A DNA stretch of 64,000 nucleotides from Mobula hypostoma (Eukaryota): NCBI RefSeq assembly GCF_963921235.1, contig NC_086097.1, positions 175,276,001 to 175,340,000 on the forward strand. Reading direction: 5' to 3'. This document shows positions 11,201 through 63,334 of the stretch, piece after piece. Made by a program: the position numbers and the translations under genes. Under the pieces are notes generated by a model. That model saw only the letters and a program-made list of their open reading frames with translations, was not told the DNA's origin and did not search any database. How positions within the stretch are numbered: the stretch's first letter is position 1; the number at the start of each line of letters is the position of its first letter.

Positions 11201-13026
11201 CCCAAGCAAATGGGGATAGGTTAGACTGGAATATTGATAGGCATGGGCCAGTTGGACCCAAGGACCTGTTCCTATGCTCTATGAGGCTACATAAAACATT
11301 AACTTGTTCTCCAAGCAGACGCTGGCTGATCGGAATAATTTTCCAATGATCACTTTTAATTTCAGATTTCCAGCAGCTATGGTATTAAATATTTCTTAAA
11401 GCGGAAATAGACTGAGAAATTCCCTACATTAGCGTGCAAGTCGTTGGCATTTTGGCAGAGTCCTGTACCTAGACACAGTAGCAAATAAAAGGGAAAAATT
11501 AAGGAGACGCTTTCATTCTTATTCAGCGAAACATCTATTCATTCACAGGGAGCAACTAGGTAACGTATCTAAAAATAAATTTGTCTCCAAGTACGAGATT
11601 ACAGACACAAAAAAAACGCAACTATCATGCGTTGGCAAATTGAGCCCGGACACGATCTTCTTGCGCGCAGTTACTGCGAGAACTGCCACATCACACAACT
11701 AGGGTCTGGCACCGGCCCAACTACACAAAATGCACTCAAAGCCCGGCCCATCCCAGGCAGATGCAGAGAAAGGCCACTGCAAATTCCACTCCACCGCCCC
11801 CCCCCCCCCACCCCGCCTCTCCCAAACTCCAGCAGTGCACAGATGAAATCTTTCAGGTTTCAAAGAGGGATAGGGCAATAGGAAAATATGTCCGTCTCCA
11901 ATCCAACACAAAATATACTCGGCCATTAAACGGCGTTGCAGCAAAGTGTTAAGTATTAGAAAGAACGCAGCATTTCAAACCGGGATTATTAATGACATAC
12001 GGCCAGAACAGGCGACCAGGCTGTTAAATGCAAGGAGTTGGTGGCGGTTACAAGGAAGTTGCTCAGTTTTAAGGAATTATGGCCACATGATGATTATCAG
12101 TTGCTCAGCCTACATGGAGTACAGGGTATGGAGGACAGACAGAGTGATTACACATTAGGAGGGGCTCAGGGCTGTCATGGAACAAGCTAAACAAGAGCTA
12201 CGGGTAATCACGGAGGTTATTAATAAGGGTTTTTATTTTAGTATTTATATAGGGTAAAAGCGCACCGACAGCAGGTTTATTAATTATTTGGTAACGTGGT
12301 TTAGGGGATCATTCAGTTAAAGGGGCTCAGATTTAAACATATTGAGTTTAGTAAAGGGCTCAAGACGGATAAAAGAATTGTGATACCTTGAGTGTCTGGT
12401 TGGGGTTTAGGGCGTGTTAGCAGGGAGTTGTTTTCCAGACGGTATAAATCAGGGAGTATTCATTTTAATGGGACTACATTTGGCATAAGAAATTCAAATT
12501 TAAGGGCTGAGTATGAAAATTTGGAGGTCTGGGGATTAATAAGGACGTGGATCGCTCCATTCAGAGAGGTCGTAGGCTGACTAATCACTTTTGTAAAGGC
12601 CAGAGTGGGTCTAGCACTAGGATAGTTAATTCATTTGAGGGTTTCAACCATTTTAAAAACGTTCAGGGTGGCGGAAAAAAAAGGATTATAAAGAGGATGG
12701 CTACACATTCAAGAGGGGAAATAATAAGGGGGCGTTGACTATTTTAAAGGGTTGGGAGATTTATAAAGGTGTTAGTTATCCATTCAATTAACAAGGGCAA
12801 TTGAGCATGTTAAACAGCCGGAAGAAATATAAAAGGGTGGGTTACCCATTCGGAGGGGGAATTAATAACAGAAGGGTGACCATTTTAGAGAGTTGGGAAA
12901 ATTATAAAGGAGTTGATTACCTTTTCAATGAGGATTAATGCGTTATATGGCTATTTAAAGGGGCTGGAAGATTTATGATGGGGTTGGTTACCCCTTCATG
13001 GGGTAATGCTGCAGTTTCTCTCCTAC

Positions 13027-13437
13027 CTTTGGCTTCTCCTTCTTGCGGCTCCTCTTCCTCTGCTCCTCGGCTCGCTGCAGTTGCACCTCTGCCGGCGTCC
13101 TATCCCTGTTCCTGGCGCCGCTGCCACTCCTCCGACCGCCTGCGCCCGCGAGTGGGGTTCCGCTGCTGGACCGCTTGCCAAAGCCCAGACATCGACCAAG
13201 GCGACAGGCGGCCGTCCACAGCCCGGCGAGCAGCAGCAACAGGCCGCCCGCCGCCGCCGCCAGTAGCAACAGCCAGCCGGCTGAGCCGGGGGACTGGCGT
13301 CTGAGCCACGGCTCCAGGCCCAAATCGATGCCCAGGCCGGTGCGGAGAAGGCCCAAGCCGGCCCATACTCCTTCCTCCAGCCGCCCCAGCAGGAGCTCGG
13401 CCTTGTCGGCCAGTACGTCGTGCCAGTTCGCTGCCAT
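13027..13437 (-). CDS. mtdh: Metadherin (LYRIC/AEG-1), first coding exon
   Basis: ATG at 13437 in gagATGG context. MAANWHDVLADKAELLLGRLEEGVWAGLGLLRTGLGIDLGLEP...hydrophobic TM...RAEEQRKRSRKKEKPK matches the MTDH N-terminus as I recall it (MAARSWQDELAQQAEE...GLGFLRTELGLDLGLEP...RSEEQKKKNRKK..EKPK). Phase-0 donor AAG|GTAGGA at 13027/13026. Later exons were not found in the window. Confidence 0.92.
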
Positions 13438-13870
13438 CTCCACCTCCACCCCTGCTAGACCGCCGGCCACATGGCCTGGGGAGCCAGGCTCGTCCCACTC
13501 CGAGCCTAAAACACTGCCAACGCCGCCTCCCGCATCCAGTAAGCAGGCCGCTAACTCAGCGGCTTCCACACCCGTCGCTCGACAGCCGGCCCTCCCGCTC
13601 CTGCGAGGTAACCCTCCGACCGCAGCGGCGCGCACACCTGCCTCAGCCCGCTATATAACCGGTGCTGTGTGGTCCTCCGACCACAAGGGGGGAGGGGGTT
13701 GGGGGACGTGCGCTGTACGTGGAGGCCGGCTCACTTGTAACGTCCTCCGACCGGAGGGGCGGTAGGAGGACGGGGAGGCCGGCTCCCCATGTGGTCCTCC
13801 GACAGCGGTGGTACTGTCATCGGAGTCCCAATCTCACCGCGCTGAATGCTGGAGGACCTCAGCGGGTCAG
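13030..13870 (-). promoter_or_regulatory. CpG island / mtdh promoter and 5' UTR
   Basis: Abrupt GC- and CpG-rich segment over the first exon; GC-box ggggcgg at ~13756; AT-rich ctatataa at 13651-13658. Confidence 0.8.
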
Positions 13871-17210: not shown

Positions 17211-17222
17211 TCAGAAATGGGT
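17211..17222 (-). CDS. mep1b: Meprin A beta terminal coding exon 15 (THF*)
   Basis: Acceptor gttttttttgacag|ACC CAT TTC TGA, phase 0; comparable to the short human terminal exon (QHAF*). Confidence 0.7.
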   Translation of the reverse strand, partial: THF

Positions 17223-20891: not shown

Positions 20892-21096
20892 ATTGGCTGA
20901 ACCGACTCCTTTGCCAGACTTGATGATTTGCTTCTGATACTTCTTCCTCATGCAGTATGCGGTGAACAGCATGATCAGCAGCATGCCCAGGAAGATGACT
21001 ACAGATGAAGTCACAGCAATTACAACGGCATCCTGTTGTTCACTAAGGTTTTCACAGTATTTGCCTGAATACCACCAATTATCGCCTGTTTGACAC
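20892..21096 (-). CDS. mep1b: Meprin A beta exon 14 (EGF end, transmembrane, cytoplasmic tail)
   Basis: CQTGDNWWYSGKYCE...AVVIAVTSSVVIFLGMLLIMLFTAYCMRKKY; ttacag| and |gtgagt; 205 nt. Confidence 0.92.
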
Positions 21097-23451: not shown

Positions 23452-24341
23452 CTCTCCTTCCCTCCCCCCCCAACTAAATTTAGTCATATCCTCATGACTT
23501 TGAGATAATTTGCCAACCCTTCCTGCAAAACACAAAGTCCAACCCAGGTGTAAAAGGGAGTGATATAGCTCCCCAAAGCGCTAGGGGCCACACTCTGTTC
23601 ACCCGGTGCTACATAGGCCAGCCTATCTGGTGGTCTCCTAATTCTCTGAGATCTCCGTTACCTCTCACCTACCTCTTCATGTTCCGACACTACTGGTGAT
23701 ACTTCTGGTCTACCTGGCGAGGCCTCCCTGGCCTATCACTTGTGCCCACCTGCAACTTGGACCCCTCTGTCCCTTGGCTGAGCCCCGCTTCATCGCTTGC
23801 AGGGTCCTGCTGAAACCTAGTCTGTCCACAGATAGCCTCCACCCCTCCCCCCTCTCCCACCCCCCCCCCCCACCCCGGCCTCCGATTTCACCCGACTCTG
23901 TGTGAGAAGGGTTGGGAGTCTCTTTCTCAATCAATGGGGAGTTAGCAAAAGGCAGCATATACTGCACCCCTATGTGCTCATCCTCCAAATCAGTATCCCA
24001 GTCAGGGGCGGGGGCCGGTCTAATCTCTCCTGCTGTTGGTCCTGAAGTCTCCCCACATCACTGCAGAGTCCTCTGACTAGGTGTAGGCTCCAGGTTGGGC
24101 TCTGGGTCAACCCGCACCTCTTGTCCCAGAGGCAGAAGGTGGTTCCGATGGAGAATCTTGACAGGCCCATTCCCATCCTCTGGTTTTACCTGGATAACTG
24201 GTACATTTGGTATCTGACTCTCCACCACACAGCGGGTAGCCACCCAGCAGTTGGCCAACTTATACTCACCAGGTAGCCCCAAATTCCATATGAGGACTCG
24301 GTCTCCTGGCATGAGTTGGGAGAACCTAACCTTTTCATCAT

Positions 24342-24929
24342 CAGTCAGTCAGTCAGTCAGTGGGTGCCGTCCCGAATCCAGAGTTAGTGGCTATGCACCT
24401 CCATCTTCTTCATTTGCACTCTTTTTCTGGCCTCAGCATAACTCAACCTAGTCCATTGCCTCACCTTATCGTACCAAGTGGTTCACTGCCTTCCTCTTTC
24501 CCTCTTTCCTTCTATCATCCCTTCCAATAACAATTTCTGCAGTCCACCACCTCTTAACAAGTGCCCGGCATATTCCAGCTTCCTTTTCTGCACATTCTTC
24601 AGCAACTCCTTTTCTCTCCTCACTCTCTTCAACACTTCCATATTACTGACCTTCATTACCCATCTAATTTTCTGCATTCTCCTTAAACACCACATTTCAA
24701 ATGCCTCCAGTCGTCATTGCGCTTCCTTGAATAAGGTCCACGATTTGACTCCATACAACAGACTGCTCCAGACGTAGCATTTCCAATTCTATAACACAGC
24801 CCAAAGTCCAACCTCTCATCACACAGCACATCACTCAGGCTCCAGAACATTGATCTTGCAATCTCAATTCTTCGTCTAATTTCTGTATCACATTTCCCAT
24901 CCTCTGTGACCATCTGTCCCAAATACACA
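24342..24929 (-). mobile_element. RTE-clade LINE 3' fragment nested in the Gypsy integrase
   Basis: FVYLGQMVTEDGKCDTEIRRRIEIAR and WCLRRMQKIRW...LEGMIEGKRERGRQ; (CTGA)n tail; 14-bp TSD aacctttt(c/g)atcat at 24328-24341 and 24930-24943. Confidence 0.88.
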
Positions 24930-27900
24930 AACCTTTTGATCATACCTCCCCTTATTTCCTTGATTCTGGTTGGTAGCCGCAACCTCAACTAATTCATAAG
25001 CCTTTTTCAGCTCCCTTCTCATATCAGACACATACTTAAGATGAACCTTCGGTAGTAGGTTGTCCTCATCAGTCCCAAGACAAAGGTCAAAAGACAATCT
25101 CGCCTAATGCCCAAACATCAAATAATATGGCGAGTACCCGATAGCTTCATTTTGTGTACAATCATAACAGTGTACCAGATGTCCAATATGTTGACTCCAC
25201 TTGCTCTTCTTGCTGATCTCCAAGATTCTGAGCATGTCTAGCAAGGTCCAATTGAACCTCTCGGACTAGGGATCATCTGCGGGTGACAAGGAGTAGTCCC
25301 TGACTTCTTGACTCCGAGCAAGCTCTGTAACTCATTGATGAGCCTCTTTGCGAAATCCAAACTCTGATCATTATGTATCCACCTGAGGAGGCCATAATAA
25401 ACAAAATACTTTGGCCATTGTGGACGCCCTCTGGTCCTTGGTAGGGAAAGCCTGTGCATATCTGGTGTAGTGATCTGTGATGACTAAGGCATTCGCCATG
25501 TTACTGGCATCTGGCTCTATTGATGGGAAATCCATATACATCAGGTCAAGGGGCCCCGCATTCTGCAAGTAGGACAAGGGAGTTGCCCGTGTAGGCAGCG
25601 TCTTCCTCCATATGCATTGAATGTACAACTTGCAGTATTCTTTGACCTCTGACTTTATCTGGGGCCAGTAAAACAGGTCTCTGAGCAATCCATAGGTTTT
25701 TTCAACCCCCTAATGTCCAGAATAATCATGAAGTGACTTCAACACCATCCTCCAATACTTCTCAGGCAGAACCAGCTGGGAATACTGACGTCAGTCCGGA
25801 GGTGACGTGACCTGAGATAGGATCCAGTTCCTCAACTCCAATCTGGGCCATTCTCTCAGTAATAGAGGCACTGCAGCGTGTTTTGTCTTCTCCGCTTGGG
25901 CCAAGTCTCCTTTTCAACCGCTGACCAAATGGTACCAATGCCCGGGTCATCCTGCTGAGCAGCTACCACTTCCCCAGGATTCGATTCTGGTAACTGGTTT
26001 GCCTTCAGAGCAGTCAGGTTACAGTAAACTTGTGGAATGGCGTCATCCGAAGCTCCCAATTGATCTACTGCTCGATCCTGTCCTTGCTTTCTGTCTGCCT
26101 TCACAGTGATGACAAACTGTCATATGGCTTTCACCCCCGGGGCAGGAATGCTTTCCCACTCCTCTTCCCTATCCAGCCCTTCATATGCATGTTGGGACAA
26201 AGCATTAGCATCAATTTTCCTACTTTCTGGCCGGTATTTCAGGCTGAAATCATAGGCAGACAACACCACCAGCCACCGATGGCCTATGACATCCAATTTT
26301 GCCGAGGTGAGGATATAAGTTAGGGGATTGTTGTCCATCCTCACCTCAAACTTGGCACCTTAGAGGTAGTCACTCAGCTTATCCACCACAGTCCATTTCA
26401 AAGCCAGAAACTGCAATTTATGCATGGGATAGTTTTTTTCAGAGGGTGACAGACTTCAACTGACAATCGCCCCGAGCCTCAACCTGGTGCCCTGATCCTG
26501 ATACAGGACACCCCCCCCCCCCAAGCCCTCTCTGCTGGCATTCATTTGCAGTACATACAGCATTCGGGGGTCTGCAAAAACTAGCACAGGCACCTGGGTC
26601 AGCATCTCCTTCAACGACTGAAAGGCCTCTTCACATTTTGCATTCCACCTTGGTCCAAAAGGCTCCGAAGGGCTAAGGTACTCCTTGCTCCCCTCTCCTT
26701 TTGTCCCCCTCCCTTTCTTCCCCAGGGAAGGTAACCACTAAGAAGCTGATTCAACAGGTGACTAACTTTCACGTAGCCCTTCACAAACCTCCAACAGTAA
26801 CCACAAAATCCGAGGAACAAGTGCAAATTGCTCACAGTCTGGGGCCTTGGCCAGGTGGTCACTGCATCCATCTTAGACAGGTCTGTAGCTACTCCATTCC
26901 GGGAAACTATGTGCCCAACATAGCCAACAGACGTCTTCTGGAACTGTCATTTGTCCAGGGAAAGTTTTAACCCTTCAGCTTTCAGGCGGCCCAGCACCTT
27001 CAGTAGCCTTGCTTCATGTTCTTCCAAGGTGGACCCAAACACTATGAGGTCACCCAGATACACCAATACCTCGAGCAAGTTAGTACCCCCACCGTTTTCT
27101 CCATGACCCGCTGGAAAGTTGCAGGGGCTCCTGATATGCCCTGGGGCATCCTTTCAAACTGGAAGAATCCCAGTGTACTTATAAATGCCGTCTTCTCTTT
27201 GTCAGCCTCACTCATGGGGATCTGGTAATATCCACTCCTCAAGTCCAACACACTGAACCACTTCACACCACTCAGACAGGCCAGAGCGTCTTCAATCCTC
27301 GGGACAGTATACTGGTCAGGGACAGTACGCCTGTACACACACATCCGTACCTTCCCATTCTTCTTTCTGGCCACTACTATTGGGGACGCATGGGGGCTTC
27401 GGGACTCGGTGATGATCCCAGCTTCCTTCAACTTTCATAAGTGCTGCTGAACGTCTTTCACCTCTGCAGGGGCCAGTCGTTGCGACCTCTCTCTGAACGG
27501 GGTATCCTCGGTCTCCTGGATAGTGGGACGAGTGCTCTTAGAACAATCCAGAACAAACTTGTCAGTGGAAAAGACACCTTCCAGCTTCAGCATCTTCTCT
27601 ACCAACCTCCTCTTCCAACCTGCAGGAACCGGGGAGTCCCTGAAGTTGAATGACTCAGCAATCAACCTTCCCCCTTTTTCCACTAGTTTCTCCCTGGCTT
27701 GTCTCACAGGGACACGAGACATTACCGTCACTGGGAAGAAATGCGCCAGGGGCATCCCCTGCTTGAAGATGACTTCCCTCTTTGTACTGTTCCTCACAAT
27801 CACTGCCGTCCTGTTTGCCTGTACAACAGAGAGCTTCTGCAGTTTGGGTCTCACCAGTACCCCAGCAGACACTCCCGACTCCTCTTCATGGTCTTCCGGA

Positions 27901-29973
27901 GCATCCACCAACCAGGCCTCACCCTCGGGCATTCCGGGAAATTTGGAGTTTCCGATTACTCTCGCTACTTCCCCGGGCCGTAACATGATTGGCTTGGACT
28001 GGGTGAACCACACAGTCCCTTGTCTAAACTCGTTATCCGGCCCAGCGCAGACACACACTTTCTCAAAAGCAGCTCGAAACACCGGGTGAATGGACAATGT
28101 CCTCAGGAAGCTCTCTCCATCTTTCTCCTTGCAGGCTCCCATGAGCCTCCGCACAATAGGAGTGTTGGTCCCCAGAAGAATTGAAATGCCACCCTTCTCA
28201 ACGGGGTCCAGACAAACTAACGCTAATGTATACGGGCCTCAGCCACTCCCACATTAGCCTCCAAAAACTCCAGCTTCACTGACAAATAACCATCATACAG
28301 ATGATCACCCACACTAAGACCCCAGATCTCTCGTGCACTGAATGGTAAATGCATCAAGTACCCATTGTAAAATGAATGGTACAGCAAAGTGACCTGTTCA
28401 CCAGCAACTTTGATGTGTGTTCCCTGTGTCAAGTATGGCTCTAGCATAAACACACTATCTGTAGCGATACACTGGAGCTTGGCCCCACTAAGCCTTCAGA
28501 AATAGGGTTCTTTGCTTTAGGGTTTTCCTTGATATATTGCTGGGAATGTGTTCCCCCCGCCCCCGATACGCCAGGCCATTCCCCCCACTGCGTCTCCTTT
28601 AAGTTTTCCCATCAACTCTCTCTGCTTAGGTACCCAGGGGCTCCCTCTCCGATGGGTTTCCTGTCGTTCACACTCCCACCTGAAGTGTCCTTCTTCACCA
28701 CAGTTAAAACAGACAATACCGGCTGCTAGCAGACCTCGGTATAGTCTGTTCCCTTAGAGGAACCACCTCCCTATCAGCTTCATCATATGGGTGGGGGGGG
28801 GGTCACACCTGCTTATTACAACTGGGACATCTCTGTTCTTAACTTTGCCGCAGTCTCCTCTACCATTCCTTGGAGCATGCTACCTGTGGTCACTTCACCA
28901 CAGGGGACCACTACCGAGGACTGTACTGTGCTGAAGGAGGCCTCCCATGCCTCTGATGCATTCTCCTCCTCCCGCACTTCTCTGATCAGCTCAACAAATG
29001 AGGGAGAGGGGACATCTTACGAGACGGTCGGAGACCCCAAGCGATCAGGTCCTGAGACTGGGCGCCCTTTGCTACCTGGTCCATTCTTAACTGATCCACC
29101 TCAGCCGCCTTAATGGCCCCTCTGCACCTCTCTAGCCGAAAGATGTAGGAAGAAAGATTTCCCCCTTCTCCTGACGCATGTTCTGAAACCCCACCATGAG
29201 CTCCATTGGGCTTCCTGTCATGCCAAATGCCTTTTCCAGTGCTCCCATGTAATCTCCCATAGTTGCTCGGGGATACCAGGACCTGACAACTCTCACAACG
29301 TCAGCAGCCCGCCCACTCAAACTCTCAACTAATCCCTGTCACTTTACATCATCAGAGCACTGCCACTCATCTAACAACTGAGAGGTGTGCTCCACCCAAG
29401 TCTCATACTGCTCTTACCCTTTAGGCGTTGGCGTATTTCCACAGAATAGGCAGAGCCTACCATAGCTGGGCATTTTTCCATTTATTCGCCAGAGAGGTAA
29501 GGGCAGGTACTAACTCAGAATTCTCACTCTTCCCTGGGGGACAGGGACTAAGTAGCCATTCCAAATCCAACCACTCCTTTCCCTCACTCCTCTCCCTCAC
29601 TCCTCAGAAATGACAGAACCCTGCCTTTGAAGTCTCCGCCCCCAGCTACAGGAAGCTGGACTTGTGATTCAGCCCGCTCTGCTACCGTTACATCAGCTCT
29701 AGTCTGCAGTAAAACAAAGGCTGTGCCTGCCATTTTATCAAACCTCCGCCCCGCAATTGTAACTTTTCCAACAATTTTGACAGTACTTAACATGCGAATT
29801 AACCATTCATCTGGAGTACAAATATCTACCCCACTCAACACGCACGCATTAGTTACCGCTCCAACATGGCAGCATCCATACCAGCACAGACTTAAACACA
29901 CAACCCACGGGTTCAATACTTAGGGCAAACACACAGCATCCAACGAAATGAATCCTGGGTGAGCCCCCACAAT

Positions 29974-30502
29974 TGTAACCATCAGGGTCGGCTGGTGGCG
30001 ATTGTCAAGGGGAAGATAGTATCCAGCCCTACCAAACTTGTTTTCTCCTGTTACAAATCGGTACCATGAAATAATGAACAATACACCATATGCAATTAAG
30101 CAATTGAGTTTTATAAATCTTAATTTGACTATAGGGTTAGTAGAGAAAACAAAAAGAAAAAAGGGCCCATTTTAATGAAAGCCTAATGTGCACGTTGGAG
30201 CTCACGATTTTCCCGCCTGTTCATTCTCCATCAATTTCCCCCGAGCATCATCGACTCCCGACCGCCTTCCAAGTCCTCTCCATCCTGCAGTCTACGACCT
30301 CTCCGTTCTGACCTCTTCTCTCTCCATCTTCTGCCAAACAAAAGCCCACAAATCCCTCGCTCTCGGGCAGACACGAAAGAAAAACCTCCCCTCATTGGAT
30401 GCCACACATTCCAAAGCCCCTGTTATCTCTCGTCATAACCCAAACGCTGTTGCTACAGAGACACCATTACATTAGCAGTGAAACCTTTCCCAGGGTGTTA
30501 CA
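29974..30502 (-). repeat. 5' LTR of the Gypsy element
   Basis: 529 bp, with a ~33-bp deletion relative to the other LTR; followed on the minus strand by the PBS. Confidence 0.93.
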
Positions 30503-36026: not shown

Positions 36027-36231
36027 CTGCACACAGGCTCTCCATTCAGTTCAATGCAGACTCCTTCATTTTGACATTGAAAGCCAATGCATAATTCTGG
36101 GATATTTGTCACCGGTTTGTCAGTTGCTGGCTTGCTGGTCAAGTTGGTGATAGGATGGGGTGTGAGCTTGTTTGTGGTGGAATGGTAGGGAGCTGATGGT
36201 GTAGGTTGACTGGCTACAAGATGTGATGCAT
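36027..36231 (-). CDS. mep1b: Meprin A beta exon 13 (Ser/Thr/Pro stalk and EGF-like domain)
   Basis: DASHLVASQPTPSAP...ELCIGFQCQNEGVCIELNGEPVCR; tttcag| and |gtaatt; 205 nt, phase 1 to 2. Confidence 0.9.
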
Positions 36232-38465: not shown

Positions 38466-38532
38466 ACCGGTTGTTCCTCCTTATAGATGTGCAGTGAGTG
38501 TAAGAAACAGTATCCAGAAAATAAAGCCTTAC

Positions 38533-38715
38533 CTTCCATGGTCAAAAGGAAATAAACATCATCTCCCTTGACAAACTCTCTGCTTTTCAATCTTTCATGG
38601 GATAAAAAAGTACTGATTCCCATGCTTGGTCCCCGGTAATACCGACTGCCATCAGCTTCTGTCACCAGATATCCCACTTTATTTGGCCTATCCCAGAAGA
38701 AGGTTGTTTCATTGC
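38533..38715 (-). CDS. mep1b: Meprin A beta exon 12 (MATH/TRAF C-terminal part)
   Basis: GNETTFFWDRPNKVG...FLSHERLKSREFVKGDDVYFLLTME; ttacag| and |gtaagg; 183 nt. Confidence 0.93.
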
Positions 38716-38793
38716 CTGTAAACAGTTCAGATAGCCATTAGTATGCCTACACTAAAACCACAAGCAGGAAAGCTAAGCAAGATATGGACTGAC

Positions 38794-39271
38794 CTGTAGT
38801 TTGGATTTTATTTGGGTCCGTAGTTACCGTTCTCTGGTGGGACATGCGTCGTCTAATGTCGGGGTGCTGATCCATCAGAAGCATGCATGGTCCCTTGCAT
38901 CCATGGGCATGGCCATTGTAGAAGATCATCATTAATGCCATTGACTAAGTGAAGGAATATACCAAGATAGAAGGGAAACTCACTTGTACCGTTCATGTAG
39001 AGCTTGATTTGAAATGCATAACCTTTACTGGAGTAATATCTTGGGCTGTAGATAACTCCAGTGCTTCCCGACAGGCTTCTGTTCAGAATGTCGGTGAAGT
39101 TTCTGATGTGCCACACATGGGTAGGACAGTGGGTTTCTGAGAGGTTGATATCATCAATGGAAATCCCTCCATTGGGGGAGGCTGCTTGTTTCACCCCTTC
39201 AAAGACGACACGAAACTTTCCAGCGACATTCAGGCTGACATGATGAATCTGCCAGTAATTCAGACCTGCAA
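38794..39271 (-). CDS. mep1b: Meprin A beta exon 11 (MAM end and MATH start), frameshifted
   Basis: WQIHHVSLNVAGKFRVVFEG...SIDDINLSETHCP...YSSKGYAFQ...LQWPCPWMQGTM, then the frame changes to LLMDQHPDIRRRMSHQRTVTTDP. Length 478 nt instead of a frame-preserving 474, caused by the ATGC duplication at 38881-38888. Confidence 0.9.
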
Positions 39272-40615
39272 CTGTTGCAAGGAACAAAATTTCATTTTTC
39301 TAGAATCTAAGAGTTGTTTCAAATGACTGGATGTCACTGGAGGAGACAACACTTACTATTCATTTCTAAGTACTCTCTGTACCTACTGGAAGACGATTTC
39401 AGAGTCAACAACTTTGGCAGATTTGGAATCAGATATTGACCAGTCCAGTTTAGGAAATTTCCTTCTGCATAAGGCTGAATTCTCCAAAAAATAATCTAGT
39501 AGTTTTAATTCAGAAACTGCGGAGTTATGATCGCAGCTTAGCACATCCCAGAAACCTGCATGCTTTCATTGGCCTCTGTCAATACTTCTCACTGGCTTGG
39601 TAAAGCAACCAACATATTCAAAAACACCTAGCACTCCAGCATTCTCTCTTCTTTCCCCTCCACTGGGCAGAAAACAACAAAGCCTGGAAACAGGTAGCTG
39701 CAGGCTTGAGGGAAGATTCAATCCCGGAGTTCGAAGATTATTGAGTGATCACCTAGTACAATAAGACGGACTTTTGACCTTTCAATCTACCTCATAATGA
39801 TCTTGCACCTTAATGTCTGTCTGCGCTGAACTTTCTCCATAACTGCAACACTTTATTCTGCATTCTGAAATTGCGTTCCCCTGTACCACCTCAATGGATT
39901 ATTGTAATGAAATGATCTGCAAGGATAACATGAAAAACAACATTTTTCACTGTACTTTGGTACATGTGACATTAATAAACCAATTTACCAGTGATTGTTC
40001 TTTACAACACATTCATTCACCGATTTGAATTTAGTTTTCCCAAATGCCACCAATAAAGTTCAACTCATATCAATGGGATTTCTGGATACAAGTCGTATTT
40101 CTAATCAGTAGGCTTTCCGGATATCTTTTCTTACAAGTTATACCCTTATCAATGAGTGATCATTTGATGGTGCGTAGTAAGACTGCCTGTACCTAATAAA
40201 GTGGCCACTGAGAGTATGTTCATAGTTTTCTGCTGCTGTAGCCCATCTCAAAGAACATCTCTGAATGAAGTGTTGTGCATTCACTGCATATCACTGTTAT
40301 AACATGTGGTCATTTGAGTTGCCGTGTTCCTGTCAGCTTGAACTATTCTGGCCATTCTTCTTTGATCTCTCTCATTAACAAGGCGTTTTCACCCACAGAA
40401 CTGCCACTCACTGGATGTTTTTTCTGTTTTTCATAGCATTCTCTGCAAACTTTAGGGTAGGGGCTGTTGTCCATGAAAATCCCCAGCAGATCAGCAGTTT
40501 CTGAGATACTCAAACCACCCCACAGCAACAATCATTTCATGGTCAAGGTCACTTAGATCACATTTCCTTCCAATTATGATGTCTAGTCTGAAAAACAATT
40601 TAACCTCTTGACCAT

Positions 40616-41627: not shown

Positions 41628-41843
41628 CTTCTACTCCTCCAACTTTAGTTAAAGTACCATTGGGATTTTCTTCGTTGAAAACTCTGACCCAAATGTTTAG
41701 CTCGTCTTTGTCGCTTCCACTGTTGAAGGAGTAGAATTGGAGGCATTGGAAGCCACGCTTTGGGTAAAATATCCTGCTTTCCAAGAAGGCCTTCTGTCCC
41801 ACCGGGCCTGAGCTGGTGCTGAAGTGCATGAAGTATCCATTAC
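41628..41843 (-). CDS. mep1b: Meprin A beta exon 10 (MAM)
   Basis: GNGYFMHFSTSSG...LESRIFYPKRGFQCLQFY...; tggcag| and |gtaggt; 216 nt. Confidence 0.95.
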
Positions 41844-44835: not shown

Positions 44836-44988
44836 CTTTACAGTTGCCCATGTTGGTGAAGTCTGTTGAAGGCCCACCCGGAGCCTGGGAAACTCGCTGC
44901 CAATCTGCGTTGTCTTTTTGATCCTGTATCATGCCGCAGATATTTTCAAGTTCAAAGTCGCAACTGTCCAAAAAGCTGAGCGAGGTGG
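44836..44988 (-). CDS. mep1b: Meprin A beta exon 9 (MAM start)
   Basis: TSLSFLDSCDFELENICGMIQDQKDNADWQRVSQAPGGPSTDFTNMGNCK; gattag| and |gtaaac; 153 nt. Confidence 0.95.
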
Positions 44989-48559: not shown

Positions 48560-48778
48560 TGCAGTTATAGAGTCGGTTGACTTTTTGGAGATCATAATCG
48601 CTGAACTCCATGCGCTGTCCAATCACCTTACTGAACTCAGCAATCTTGGTGACAATGGTTGGTTCTGAGCCGTTGTTGAAAGCAGTTGAGCTGTAGTGCA
48701 TCACGGAGGTATAGTCATACGGTATGTTCTGAGAAATGGACACCTTGTCGTCGTACTTATTGAAATTGTGTTCCTTAC
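48560..48778 (-). CDS. mep1b: Meprin A beta exon 8 (astacin domain, Met-turn)
   Basis: GKEHNFNKYDD...PYDYTSVMHYS...VIGQRMEFSDYDLQKVNRLYNC; attcag| and |gtgagt; 219 nt. Confidence 0.96.
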
Positions 48779-50334: not shown

Positions 50335-50513
50335 CATGTTCAATCCTGTCCCATATTATTTGGACGTAGTCATCGCGATCGGGTCTCGACTGCTCATGCC
50401 AGAATCCCAGCGCATGGAGAAACTCGTGTTCAATGGTTGCAATTCTTTCACACCTCTCTCCGATTGAAAGCTGCTGCTTGCCAGCCTGCTGATTGCCCAC
50501 CGATGACCAACAC
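50335..50513 (-). CDS. mep1b: Meprin A beta exon 7 (zinc-binding motif)
   Basis: [59 protein letters not shown]; tgacag| and |gtaaag; 179 nt. Translated by hand; not in the ORF track. Confidence 0.97.
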
Positions 50514-53018: not shown

Positions 53019-53136
53019 CCACTTCCCTTGAATACGGAGATGTAGTTAGCTTCCCCAGTCCAAGGCTTAAAATTAATGCAAGACTTAAGGCGATATTGTT
53101 CAAAAGCTTTAAGGATGACACCTTTAGCATTTACAT
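53019..53136 (-). CDS. mep1b: Meprin A beta exon 6 (astacin domain)
   Basis: [40 protein letters not shown]; ccacag| and |gtaaga; 118 nt. Confidence 0.96.
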
Positions 53137-61384: not shown

Positions 61385-61463
61385 CTAAGCTATCTTCCAG
61401 ATAGTATGGAATCATCTTTGGCCACCTGTATTTTTCATCAGCAATTGCACTTCTGGCAGTGGT
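61385..61463 (-). CDS. mep1b: Meprin A beta exon 5 (propeptide cleavage site and mature N-terminus)
   Basis: TTARSAIADEKYRWPKMIPYYLEDSL; aatcag| and |gtgggt; 79 nt. Confidence 0.93.
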
Positions 61464-61578: not shown

Positions 61579-61622
61579 CATATCGTGCATGATATCTCCT
61601 TCTATGAGATCCAGTCCAAGTT
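61579..61622 (-). CDS. mep1b: Meprin A beta exon 4 (propeptide, EGDI Asp-switch motif)
   Basis: ELGLDLIEGDIMHDM; ctgcag| and |gtaagc; 44 nt. Confidence 0.93.
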
Positions 61623-63283: not shown

Positions 63284-63334
63284 CTTCATTTATGTCGAAT
63301 ATGTCTTGATCTAATCCAGCGTCGACATCCTCTT
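63284..63334 (-). CDS. mep1b: Meprin A beta exon 3 (propeptide)
   Basis: EDVDAGLDQDIFDINE (human VDGGMDQDIFDINE); atccag| and |gtaatt; 51 nt. Confidence 0.92.

What the first reader, a model, noticed from the sequence alone, without database searches (positions are those of the whole stretch)
38853..38888. A single 4-bp tandem duplication disrupts an otherwise intact meprin beta gene
Seen: the minus strand reads ACC ATGC ATGC TT CTG ATG GAT. Removing one ATGC gives WPCPWMQGTMLLMDQHPD, colinear with human WPCPWQQATMTLLDQNPD, and restores a 474-nt phase 1-1 exon. As written, the frame runs MHASDGSAPRH to a TAG at 38853-38855, 59 nt before the exon end. All other exons traced have intact frames, splice sites and catalytic motifs. 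Inference: a recent null allele or incipient pseudogene (predicted NMD target). If translated, the product would be a secreted protease+MAM form lacking EGF, TM and tail. It is not a homopolymer slip, but an assembly error remains possible.
Basis: partly seen in the sequence, partly recalled or inferred. Interest (0 to 1): 0.72.

Follow-up and report, generated by a model that had tools for sequence, protein, structure and literature searches.

The report
Broken meprin beta allele in ray
This ray genome carries a real four-letter duplication that breaks its meprin beta gut and kidney protease gene, but intact spliced copies exist in other samples of the same species, so it is an ordinary loss-of-function allele and not a lost gene.

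Summary
The 4-nt duplication (38881-38888) and the early stop (38853-38855, 59 nt before the exon end) are as described. It is not an assembly slip: a read-derived contig of the possible source sample matches the window with no difference (X1). It is not a species-wide loss: spliced contigs from two other samples labelled as the same organism (X5, X6) and DNA of a close relative (X8) lack the four letters. The other 11 exons in the window are intact, and the protein shows no excess decay against other rays. NCBI's model of this gene is already flagged 'LOW QUALITY' and patched at this spot. Best reading: a young, segregating null allele of mep1b; decay of its mRNA is predicted, not shown. Any protein would end half-way through the MATH domain, so a stable secreted enzyme is unlikely. 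Whether the animal is homozygous is open (about even odds). A meprin alpha paralogue of the same species label looks intact. Ordinary; low interest.

The parts
38881..38888 (-). 4-nt tandem duplication (tract CATG CATG C on the minus strand; placement ambiguous by 1 nt), +1 frameshift after Met510 (P0002 numbering)
   Evidence: left out in X5, X6, X8 and present in X1
38853..38855 (-). premature stop TAG; product 520 aa; 59, 242, 447 and 652 nt upstream of the next four exon ends
38794..39271 (-). exon with the lesion (end of MAM, first two thirds of MATH); 478 nt as written
38533..38715 (-). next exon (rest of MATH), after a 78-nt intron that is spliced out in X5 and X6
63284..63334 (-). first mep1b exon found in the window (propeptide, from residue 30)
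61579..61622 (-). exon, propeptide
61385..61463 (-). exon, activation site and start of astacin domain
53019..53136 (-). exon, astacin domain
50335..50513 (-). exon with the zinc-binding motif
48560..48778 (-). exon with the Met-turn
44836..44988 (-). exon, MAM domain
41628..41843 (-). exon, MAM domain; its end matches the loose ends of X5 and X6
36027..36231 (-). exon, Pro/Thr-rich stalk and EGF domain; its start matches the loose ends of X5 and X6
20892..21096 (-). exon, end of EGF, transmembrane helix, cytosolic tail
17211..17222 (-). candidate last coding exon (three codons and stop), matching the end of P0002
   Evidence: single motif hit; not confirmed by RNA
38941..38990 (.). two further single-base differences (38941, 38990; both change a residue) between the window haplotype and the expressed haplotype of X5/X6

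Best explanation
The window holds the single mep1b (meprin beta) gene of a ray, in a haplotype that carries a young 4-nt tandem duplication. The species also carries an intact haplotype that is transcribed and spliced normally. The lesion is a segregating frameshift null allele. Shown: the duplication is in read-derived DNA; intact copies exist in the species and in a relative; the frame closes at codon 521. Inferred: it arose by one-step slippage or fill-in at a CATG palindrome with 1 nt of microhomology; its mRNA is degraded by nonsense-mediated decay (four junctions lie more than 55 nt downstream; the rule is recalled); any protein that escapes ends inside the MATH beta-sandwich, has no membrane anchor and is probably degraded in the ER. 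The allele is tolerated because meprin beta is not essential (knockout mice live, with reduced viability) and is probably recessive. Zygosity of the sequenced animal is not settled.
For: X1 (DNA, possible source): one 1560-nt contig, depth 14.8, spans the whole laid stretch with 0 other letters and 0 gaps. X1-X4 each hold 1.00 of 75 sampled words; 29 of 671 words are specific to the duplication, with a chance of about 0.03 that none was sampled if sampling is random. X5 and X6 (same organism label, samples S2 and S3, RNA by guess, spliced across the 78-nt intron) leave out the 4 letters; so does X8 (organism B, 27 other letters in 1117). No second lesion in 12 exons. End branch of this protein 0.12, equal to sawfish 0.12. 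Changes at near-invariant columns 16 of 268, against 21/270, 11/272 and 18/270 in three other batoids. Orthology: beta clade 100/100, PDB 874 bits to human beta against 559 to alpha. Mouse knockouts viable with lower viability (PMC4545420, Introduction). Frameshift alleles average 1.66% of alleles per genotype across 35 animal species (PMC5834895, Results).
Against: All laid data are contigs, which drop variants: they show presence, not absence, so no genotype is read directly and NMD is not shown. X1-X4 are one sample and may be the source, so only one carrier is known. X5 and X6 have the same alleles, come from one study and may be one animal, even the source animal. Amino-acid divergence to organism B in the two laid exons is high (12 changing, 5 silent; dN/dS 0.65-1.1, lower 95% bounds 0.21-0.47), which a purely conserved gene would not predict. 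No whole genome was available to exclude a near-identical second copy. Only 2 of 13 exons were laid on reads.
Confidence: 0.85

Rival explanations
1. Recent duplicate: the window is a dead copy of a very recent mep1b duplication and the intact transcripts come from a second locus.
For: Window and X5/X6 transcripts differ at 3 places in about 660 coding nt. The cluster of P0002 has 8 members that could not be listed. MEP1B duplicates exist in bony fishes (PMC4545420).
Against: Only one beta entry of this species label in two searches with different exons (clusters at 90% would hide a near copy). X1 shows a single contig over the exons. Two intronic contigs of X6 (172 and 52 letters laid) equal the window. 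About 0.3% difference fits alleles.
Confidence: 0.06
2. Gene loss in progress: the null allele is common, homozygotes are healthy, and selection on mep1b is relaxed in this lineage.
For: All four runs of sample S1 hold the window's words, which favours a homozygote by about 10-16 to 1 under a simple bubble-popping model. dN/dS near 1 against organism B in two exons. An intact-looking meprin alpha could partly cover.
Against: The intact allele is expressed and spliced. The 12 residue changes fall on both lineages (about 6 and 5, 1 unclear, by outgroups) and avoid conserved columns (2 of 12 against 96 of 217, p=0.047). No branch lengthening. The counts are small and no genome-wide baseline was at hand.
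Confidence: 0.06
3. Assembly or consensus error.
For: NCBI patched the model and flagged it LOW QUALITY; conspecific RNA contigs lack the letters.
Against: A contig built from the reads of the possible source sample contains the duplication at depth 14.8; it is not a homopolymer or microsatellite context; the window haplotype also differs from the RNA haplotype at two single bases, so it is a distinct haplotype.
Confidence: 0.02
4. The allele makes a functional secreted short meprin, or is rescued by cryptic splicing.
For: Signal peptide (in P0002), astacin and MAM domains lie upstream of the stop. An in-frame donor-like site CAA/GTGAGT lies at 38983.
Against: The stop cuts MATH in half and removes the equivalents of human Arg516 and Arg567. 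Every frame-restoring GT..AG option found (27) removes at least 79 nt of the exon, and the 8 in-frame upstream donors remove 55 or more residues. No such joint in X5 or X6 (these may not carry the allele).
Confidence: 0.01

Closest known systems
Meprin A subunit beta (MEP1B; astacin family M12A; human structures 4GWM, 4GWN, 7AUW, 7AQ1)
   Same: Astacin-MAM-MATH-EGF-TM-tail order, zinc motif, Met-turn, no furin motif behind MATH, beta clade in the tree.
   Different: This haplotype has a +4 frameshift in MATH and stops at codon 521.
NCBI model 'LOW QUALITY PROTEIN: meprin A subunit beta [Mobula hypostoma]' (P0002)
   Same: 708 of 708 aligned residues equal the window's exons; it is patched at this very place.
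   Different: The patch leaves one extra Met (GTMMLL instead of GTMLL), which no homologue and no laid contig has; it treats the site as something to correct, whereas the reads show a real 4-nt allele.
Segregating frameshift loss-of-function alleles of animal genomes (PMC5834895; abstract, Background and Results read)
   Same: Single frameshift in an otherwise intact gene with an intact allele in the species; mean 1.66% of alleles in that survey.
   Different: Nothing in kind. That survey is a background rate; I did not check whether it includes cartilaginous fishes.
Mep1b-/- mice (PMC4545420, PMC10065446, PMC3573791; passages read)
   Same: A homozygous carrier would lack membrane-bound meprin beta; mice live, with lower viability, attached small-intestinal mucus and loss of galectin-3 cleavage.
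   Different: Natural allele in a cartilaginous fish; zygosity and phenotype unknown.

Membership tests
Meprin beta (MEP1B) | Astacin + MAM + MATH domains | tested here: met
   Pfam on P0002: 73-259, 268-431, 432-597, all above cut-off
Meprin beta (MEP1B) | EGF, transmembrane helix and tail, no furin-cleaved insert | tested here: met
   exons 36231-36027 and 21096-20892; EGF hit weak (18.5 bits, under the 21.5 cut-off); no RxK/RR motif after residue 560, while 8 of 8 elasmobranch alpha proteins have one
Meprin beta (MEP1B) | Groups with MEP1B, not MEP1A | tested here: met
   100/100 split in a tree of 23 chosen proteins
Segregating loss-of-function allele | Lesion present in raw-read data | tested here: met
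   X1 contig, depth 14.8, 0 differences; contigs, not raw reads
Segregating loss-of-function allele | Intact allele at the same locus in the species | tested here: met
   X5, X6 lack the 4 nt; 'same locus' is inferred, no genome held
Segregating loss-of-function allele | Population frequency and zygosity | tested here: inconclusive
   likelihood ratio 10-16 for homozygous; posterior 0.09-0.87 by assumed frequency
Unitary pseudogene | Lesion fixed in the species | tested here: not met
Unitary pseudogene | Further lesions or neutral decay | tested here: not met
   no other lesion in 12 exons; no excess change; two-exon dN/dS is high but rests on 17 changes
NMD target | Stop more than 50-55 nt upstream of a junction (rule recalled) | tested here: met
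   59, 242, 447, 652 nt
NMD target | Allele-specific loss of mRNA in a carrier | not testable with these tools
   no RNA of a known carrier; contigs only

The most novel reading that the evidence does not exclude
The reference animal is a natural homozygous meprin-beta knockout, the null allele is common in the species, and the MAM/MATH exons evolve at near-neutral or positively selected rates across the genus: a vertebrate gut protease gene caught in the act of being lost, with living animals of all three genotypes in which mucus release and alpha-tethering could be compared.
Probability: 0.07. Interest if true: 0.5.

Novelty: new member of a known kind. Interest (0 to 1): 0.17.

Why it matters
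Modestly. It shows that a 'LOW QUALITY, corrected' gene model hides a real null haplotype in the reference, so the reference should not be read as either error or gene loss, and the patched protein has a wrong extra residue. If the animal is homozygous it is a natural knockout of a mucus-releasing protease in a cartilaginous fish, and the site is an easy marker (SphI) for genetic load. One frameshift allele in a non-essential gene is expected in any genome. I found no paper on this allele or on MEP1B loss in a lineage (searches; open-access library only).

Tried and rejected
No whole genome is held, so paralogue search and synteny beyond the window were not possible. The members of P0002's cluster could not be listed, so whether close relatives' annotated proteins are intact stays open beyond X8. 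No listed holder is on record as RNA; X5 and X6 are RNA by guess, supported by their splice joint. Contig depths (39.7 and 2413.8) were not used to rank expression, and X1's depth cannot show zygosity. 'Sole meprin of cartilaginous fishes' (raised as open in PMC4545420, Discussion) was tested and rejected: alpha-type proteins were listed for eight elasmobranchs including this species label. Long-term relaxed selection was tested three ways and not supported; the two-exon dN/dS is the one result that leans the other way. Rescue by cryptic splicing was enumerated and rejected. A paper on the fate of MATH-truncated meprins was not found (one search had no passage on it); that the MATH domain is needed for a properly folded zymogen is recalled, not read. 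The scan's earlier notes had nothing on this gene. No structure was predicted; supplements of papers were not opened.

Full report
1. Observation. The minus strand reads GGGACC ATGC ATGC TTCTG at 38894-38876; the tandem is 38888-38881. In the frame of the exon the product runs ...WPCPWMQGTMHASDGSAPRH to TAG at 38855-38853, 59 nt before the donor at 38794. The exon is 39271-38794: 478 nt as written, 474 nt and phase 1-1 without four letters. A 4+4 tandem of four different letters occurs 25 times in the window, so the repeat alone means nothing; what counts is that 121 of 122 motif instances in the 120 homologues have nine residues from Q to DQ at this place, the exception being NCBI's patched model of this gene.

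2. The gene. tblastn with homologues places the exons between 63334 and 20892 on the minus strand. Twelve exons have AG/GT ends and consistent phases; read past the four letters they give 708 residues without a stop, identical to residues 30-738 of P0002 apart from one extra Met in P0002. A candidate last exon (three codons and a stop) starts at 17222. Residues 1-29 were not found in the window and were not checked. P0002 is named by NCBI 'LOW QUALITY PROTEIN: meprin A subunit beta [Mobula hypostoma]', so the window is taken to be from that species and the frameshift has already been met by an annotation pipeline, which patched it to GTMMLLMDQ. Pfam gives astacin 73-259, MAM 268-431, MATH 432-597. 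Human meprin beta scores 874 bits against 559 for alpha, and a tree of 23 proteins that I chose puts it in the beta clade at 100/100, beside sawfish.

3. Real or artefact. Of 23 runs listed, four were laid on 38480-39600; all are contigs. X1 (DNA, sample S1, possibly the source) has one 1560-nt contig at depth 14.8 that spans the stretch with 0 other letters and 0 gaps, so the duplication is in read-derived sequence. X1-X4 (all S1) each hold 1.00 of the 75 sampled words; 29 of the 671 words are specific to the duplication. An assembly error is therefore very unlikely. This is one sample, not independent carriers.

4. Allele or lost gene. X5 and X6 (same organism label, samples S2 and S3, one study, RNA by guess) each give a contig that skips the 78-nt intron, runs on into the neighbouring exons, and leaves out exactly four letters at 38881 (loose ends checked). 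They also differ from the window at 38941 and 38990 (N492S, G476S). X8 (organism B, 27 other letters in 1117) also lacks the four letters and has no stop in the two exons. So the intact state is ancestral, still present in the species and transcribed; the duplication is younger than the split from organism B. A near-identical second locus cannot be excluded without the genome, but two searches listed one beta entry for this species label and X1 shows one contig.

5. Zygosity. Contigs drop variants, so X1 does not show a genotype. If S1 were heterozygous and each run kept one allele at random, four of four runs would hold the window's words with a chance of 0.06-0.11, a ratio of 10-16 for a homozygote. 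With even prior odds that the RNA comes from the same animal (which would force heterozygosity), the posterior for homozygous runs from 0.09 at 2% allele frequency to 0.87 at 50%. The model is rough. I put it near even.

6. Selection. Against organism B the two laid exons show 12 residue-changing and 5 silent differences, and 10 in 460 intron letters; dN/dS is 0.65-1.1 by method, with lower 95% bounds of 0.21-0.47. This leans towards weak constraint and is reported as such. Against it: the changes fall on both lineages, only 2 of 12 hit columns invariant in 11 other cartilaginous-fish proteins (background 96 of 217, p=0.047), changes at near-invariant columns are no more frequent than in three other batoids (16/268 against 21/270, 11/272, 18/270), the end branch equals that of sawfish (0.12 and 0.12), and MAM and MATH are 75-81% identical among skate, sawfish and this ray alike. 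These domains seem to change fast in batoids in general.

7. How it most likely works. The mutant tract is CATG CATG C and the intact one CATG C, a one-step tandem duplication with 1 nt of microhomology, as from polymerase slippage or fill-in of a staggered break (inference). The stop lies 59, 242, 447 and 652 nt upstream of four exon ends, so nonsense-mediated decay is predicted (rule recalled, not tested). An escaping protein would have 520 residues: protease, MAM, MATH 432-510 and 10 foreign residues. Counting along the alignment (offset +22, checked on Arg61 named in PMC5215381), the equivalents of human Arg516 and Arg567, which probably extend the active-site cleft (PMC3573791, figure legend), are conserved in the ray and lie behind the frameshift. 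A half beta-sandwich without anchor is more likely degraded than secreted as an active enzyme (inference; a supporting deletion study is recalled and was not found). Cryptic splicing cannot rescue it without large deletions. Mice without Mep1b live, with lower viability (PMC4545420), and have attached small-intestinal mucus and no galectin-3 cleavage in the colon (PMC10065446). A meprin alpha of the same species label (P0362, 708 aa, not flagged, zinc motif, Met-turn and furin motif present) exists.

8. Comparison and novelty. It is a member of MEP1B; it meets the tests for a segregating loss-of-function allele and fails those for a unitary pseudogene. Frameshift alleles make up on average 1.66% of alleles per genotype in 35 animal species (PMC5834895), so one such allele in a non-essential gene is expected. 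No paper on this allele or on lineage loss of MEP1B was found in the open library, and the scan had no note on it. Papers seen: PMC4545420 part 1 of 5, passages and Discussion; PMC5834895 abstract, Background, Results; PMC3573791, PMC1867822, PMC5215381, PMC10065446 and PMC11818018 passages only; no supplements.

9. Verdict. Real, young, segregating null allele of mep1b (0.85); new member of a known kind; interest 0.17. The boldest reading left open, a common null allele with homozygous carriers and gene loss under way, has about 0.07.

Noticed in passing
P0362, P0370, P0349, P0367, P0384, P0385, P0325, P0344: Eight elasmobranch proteins group with MEP1A (100/100) and carry the furin motif, so sharks and rays have both meprin genes. 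PMC4545420 (2015) left this open; it places the alpha/beta duplication before the split of cartilaginous and bony fishes. Most are already named 'alpha-like' by NCBI.
   Followed up: yes
window 38533-39271 against run X8: High share of residue-changing differences between two close relatives in the MAM/MATH exons (12 changing, 5 silent; dN/dS 0.65-1.1). Could be tolerance at surface sites or positive selection on a gut-surface protease; two exons only.
   Followed up: partly
P0362: The meprin alpha of this species label has a longer end branch (0.21) than sawfish alpha (0.046); its astacin domain is 85% identical to sawfish while sawfish and skate are 95% identical. Its C-terminal tail also differs (isoform X2).
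   Followed up: no
window 12991-13650 (-): First exon of a LYRIC/metadherin gene (Pfam PF15686, E 1.6e-18) in a GC-rich stretch about 3.6 kb downstream of mep1b on the same strand.
   Followed up: partly
window about 23700-30200 (-): Decayed LTR-retrotransposon-like element inside the intron between the EGF and transmembrane exons, with broken reverse-transcriptase-like and integrase-like frames (by eye; motifs recalled, not scanned).
   Followed up: no
window 38990: The expressed intact haplotype (X5, X6) carries G476S at a column that is Gly in 109 of 110 homologues; it keeps the N-x-T sequon.
   Followed up: no
window 39265-39271 and 38983: A second possible acceptor 6 nt inside the exon (39265) and a donor-like CAA/GTGAGT at 38983; neither is used in X5 or X6.
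   Followed up: partly
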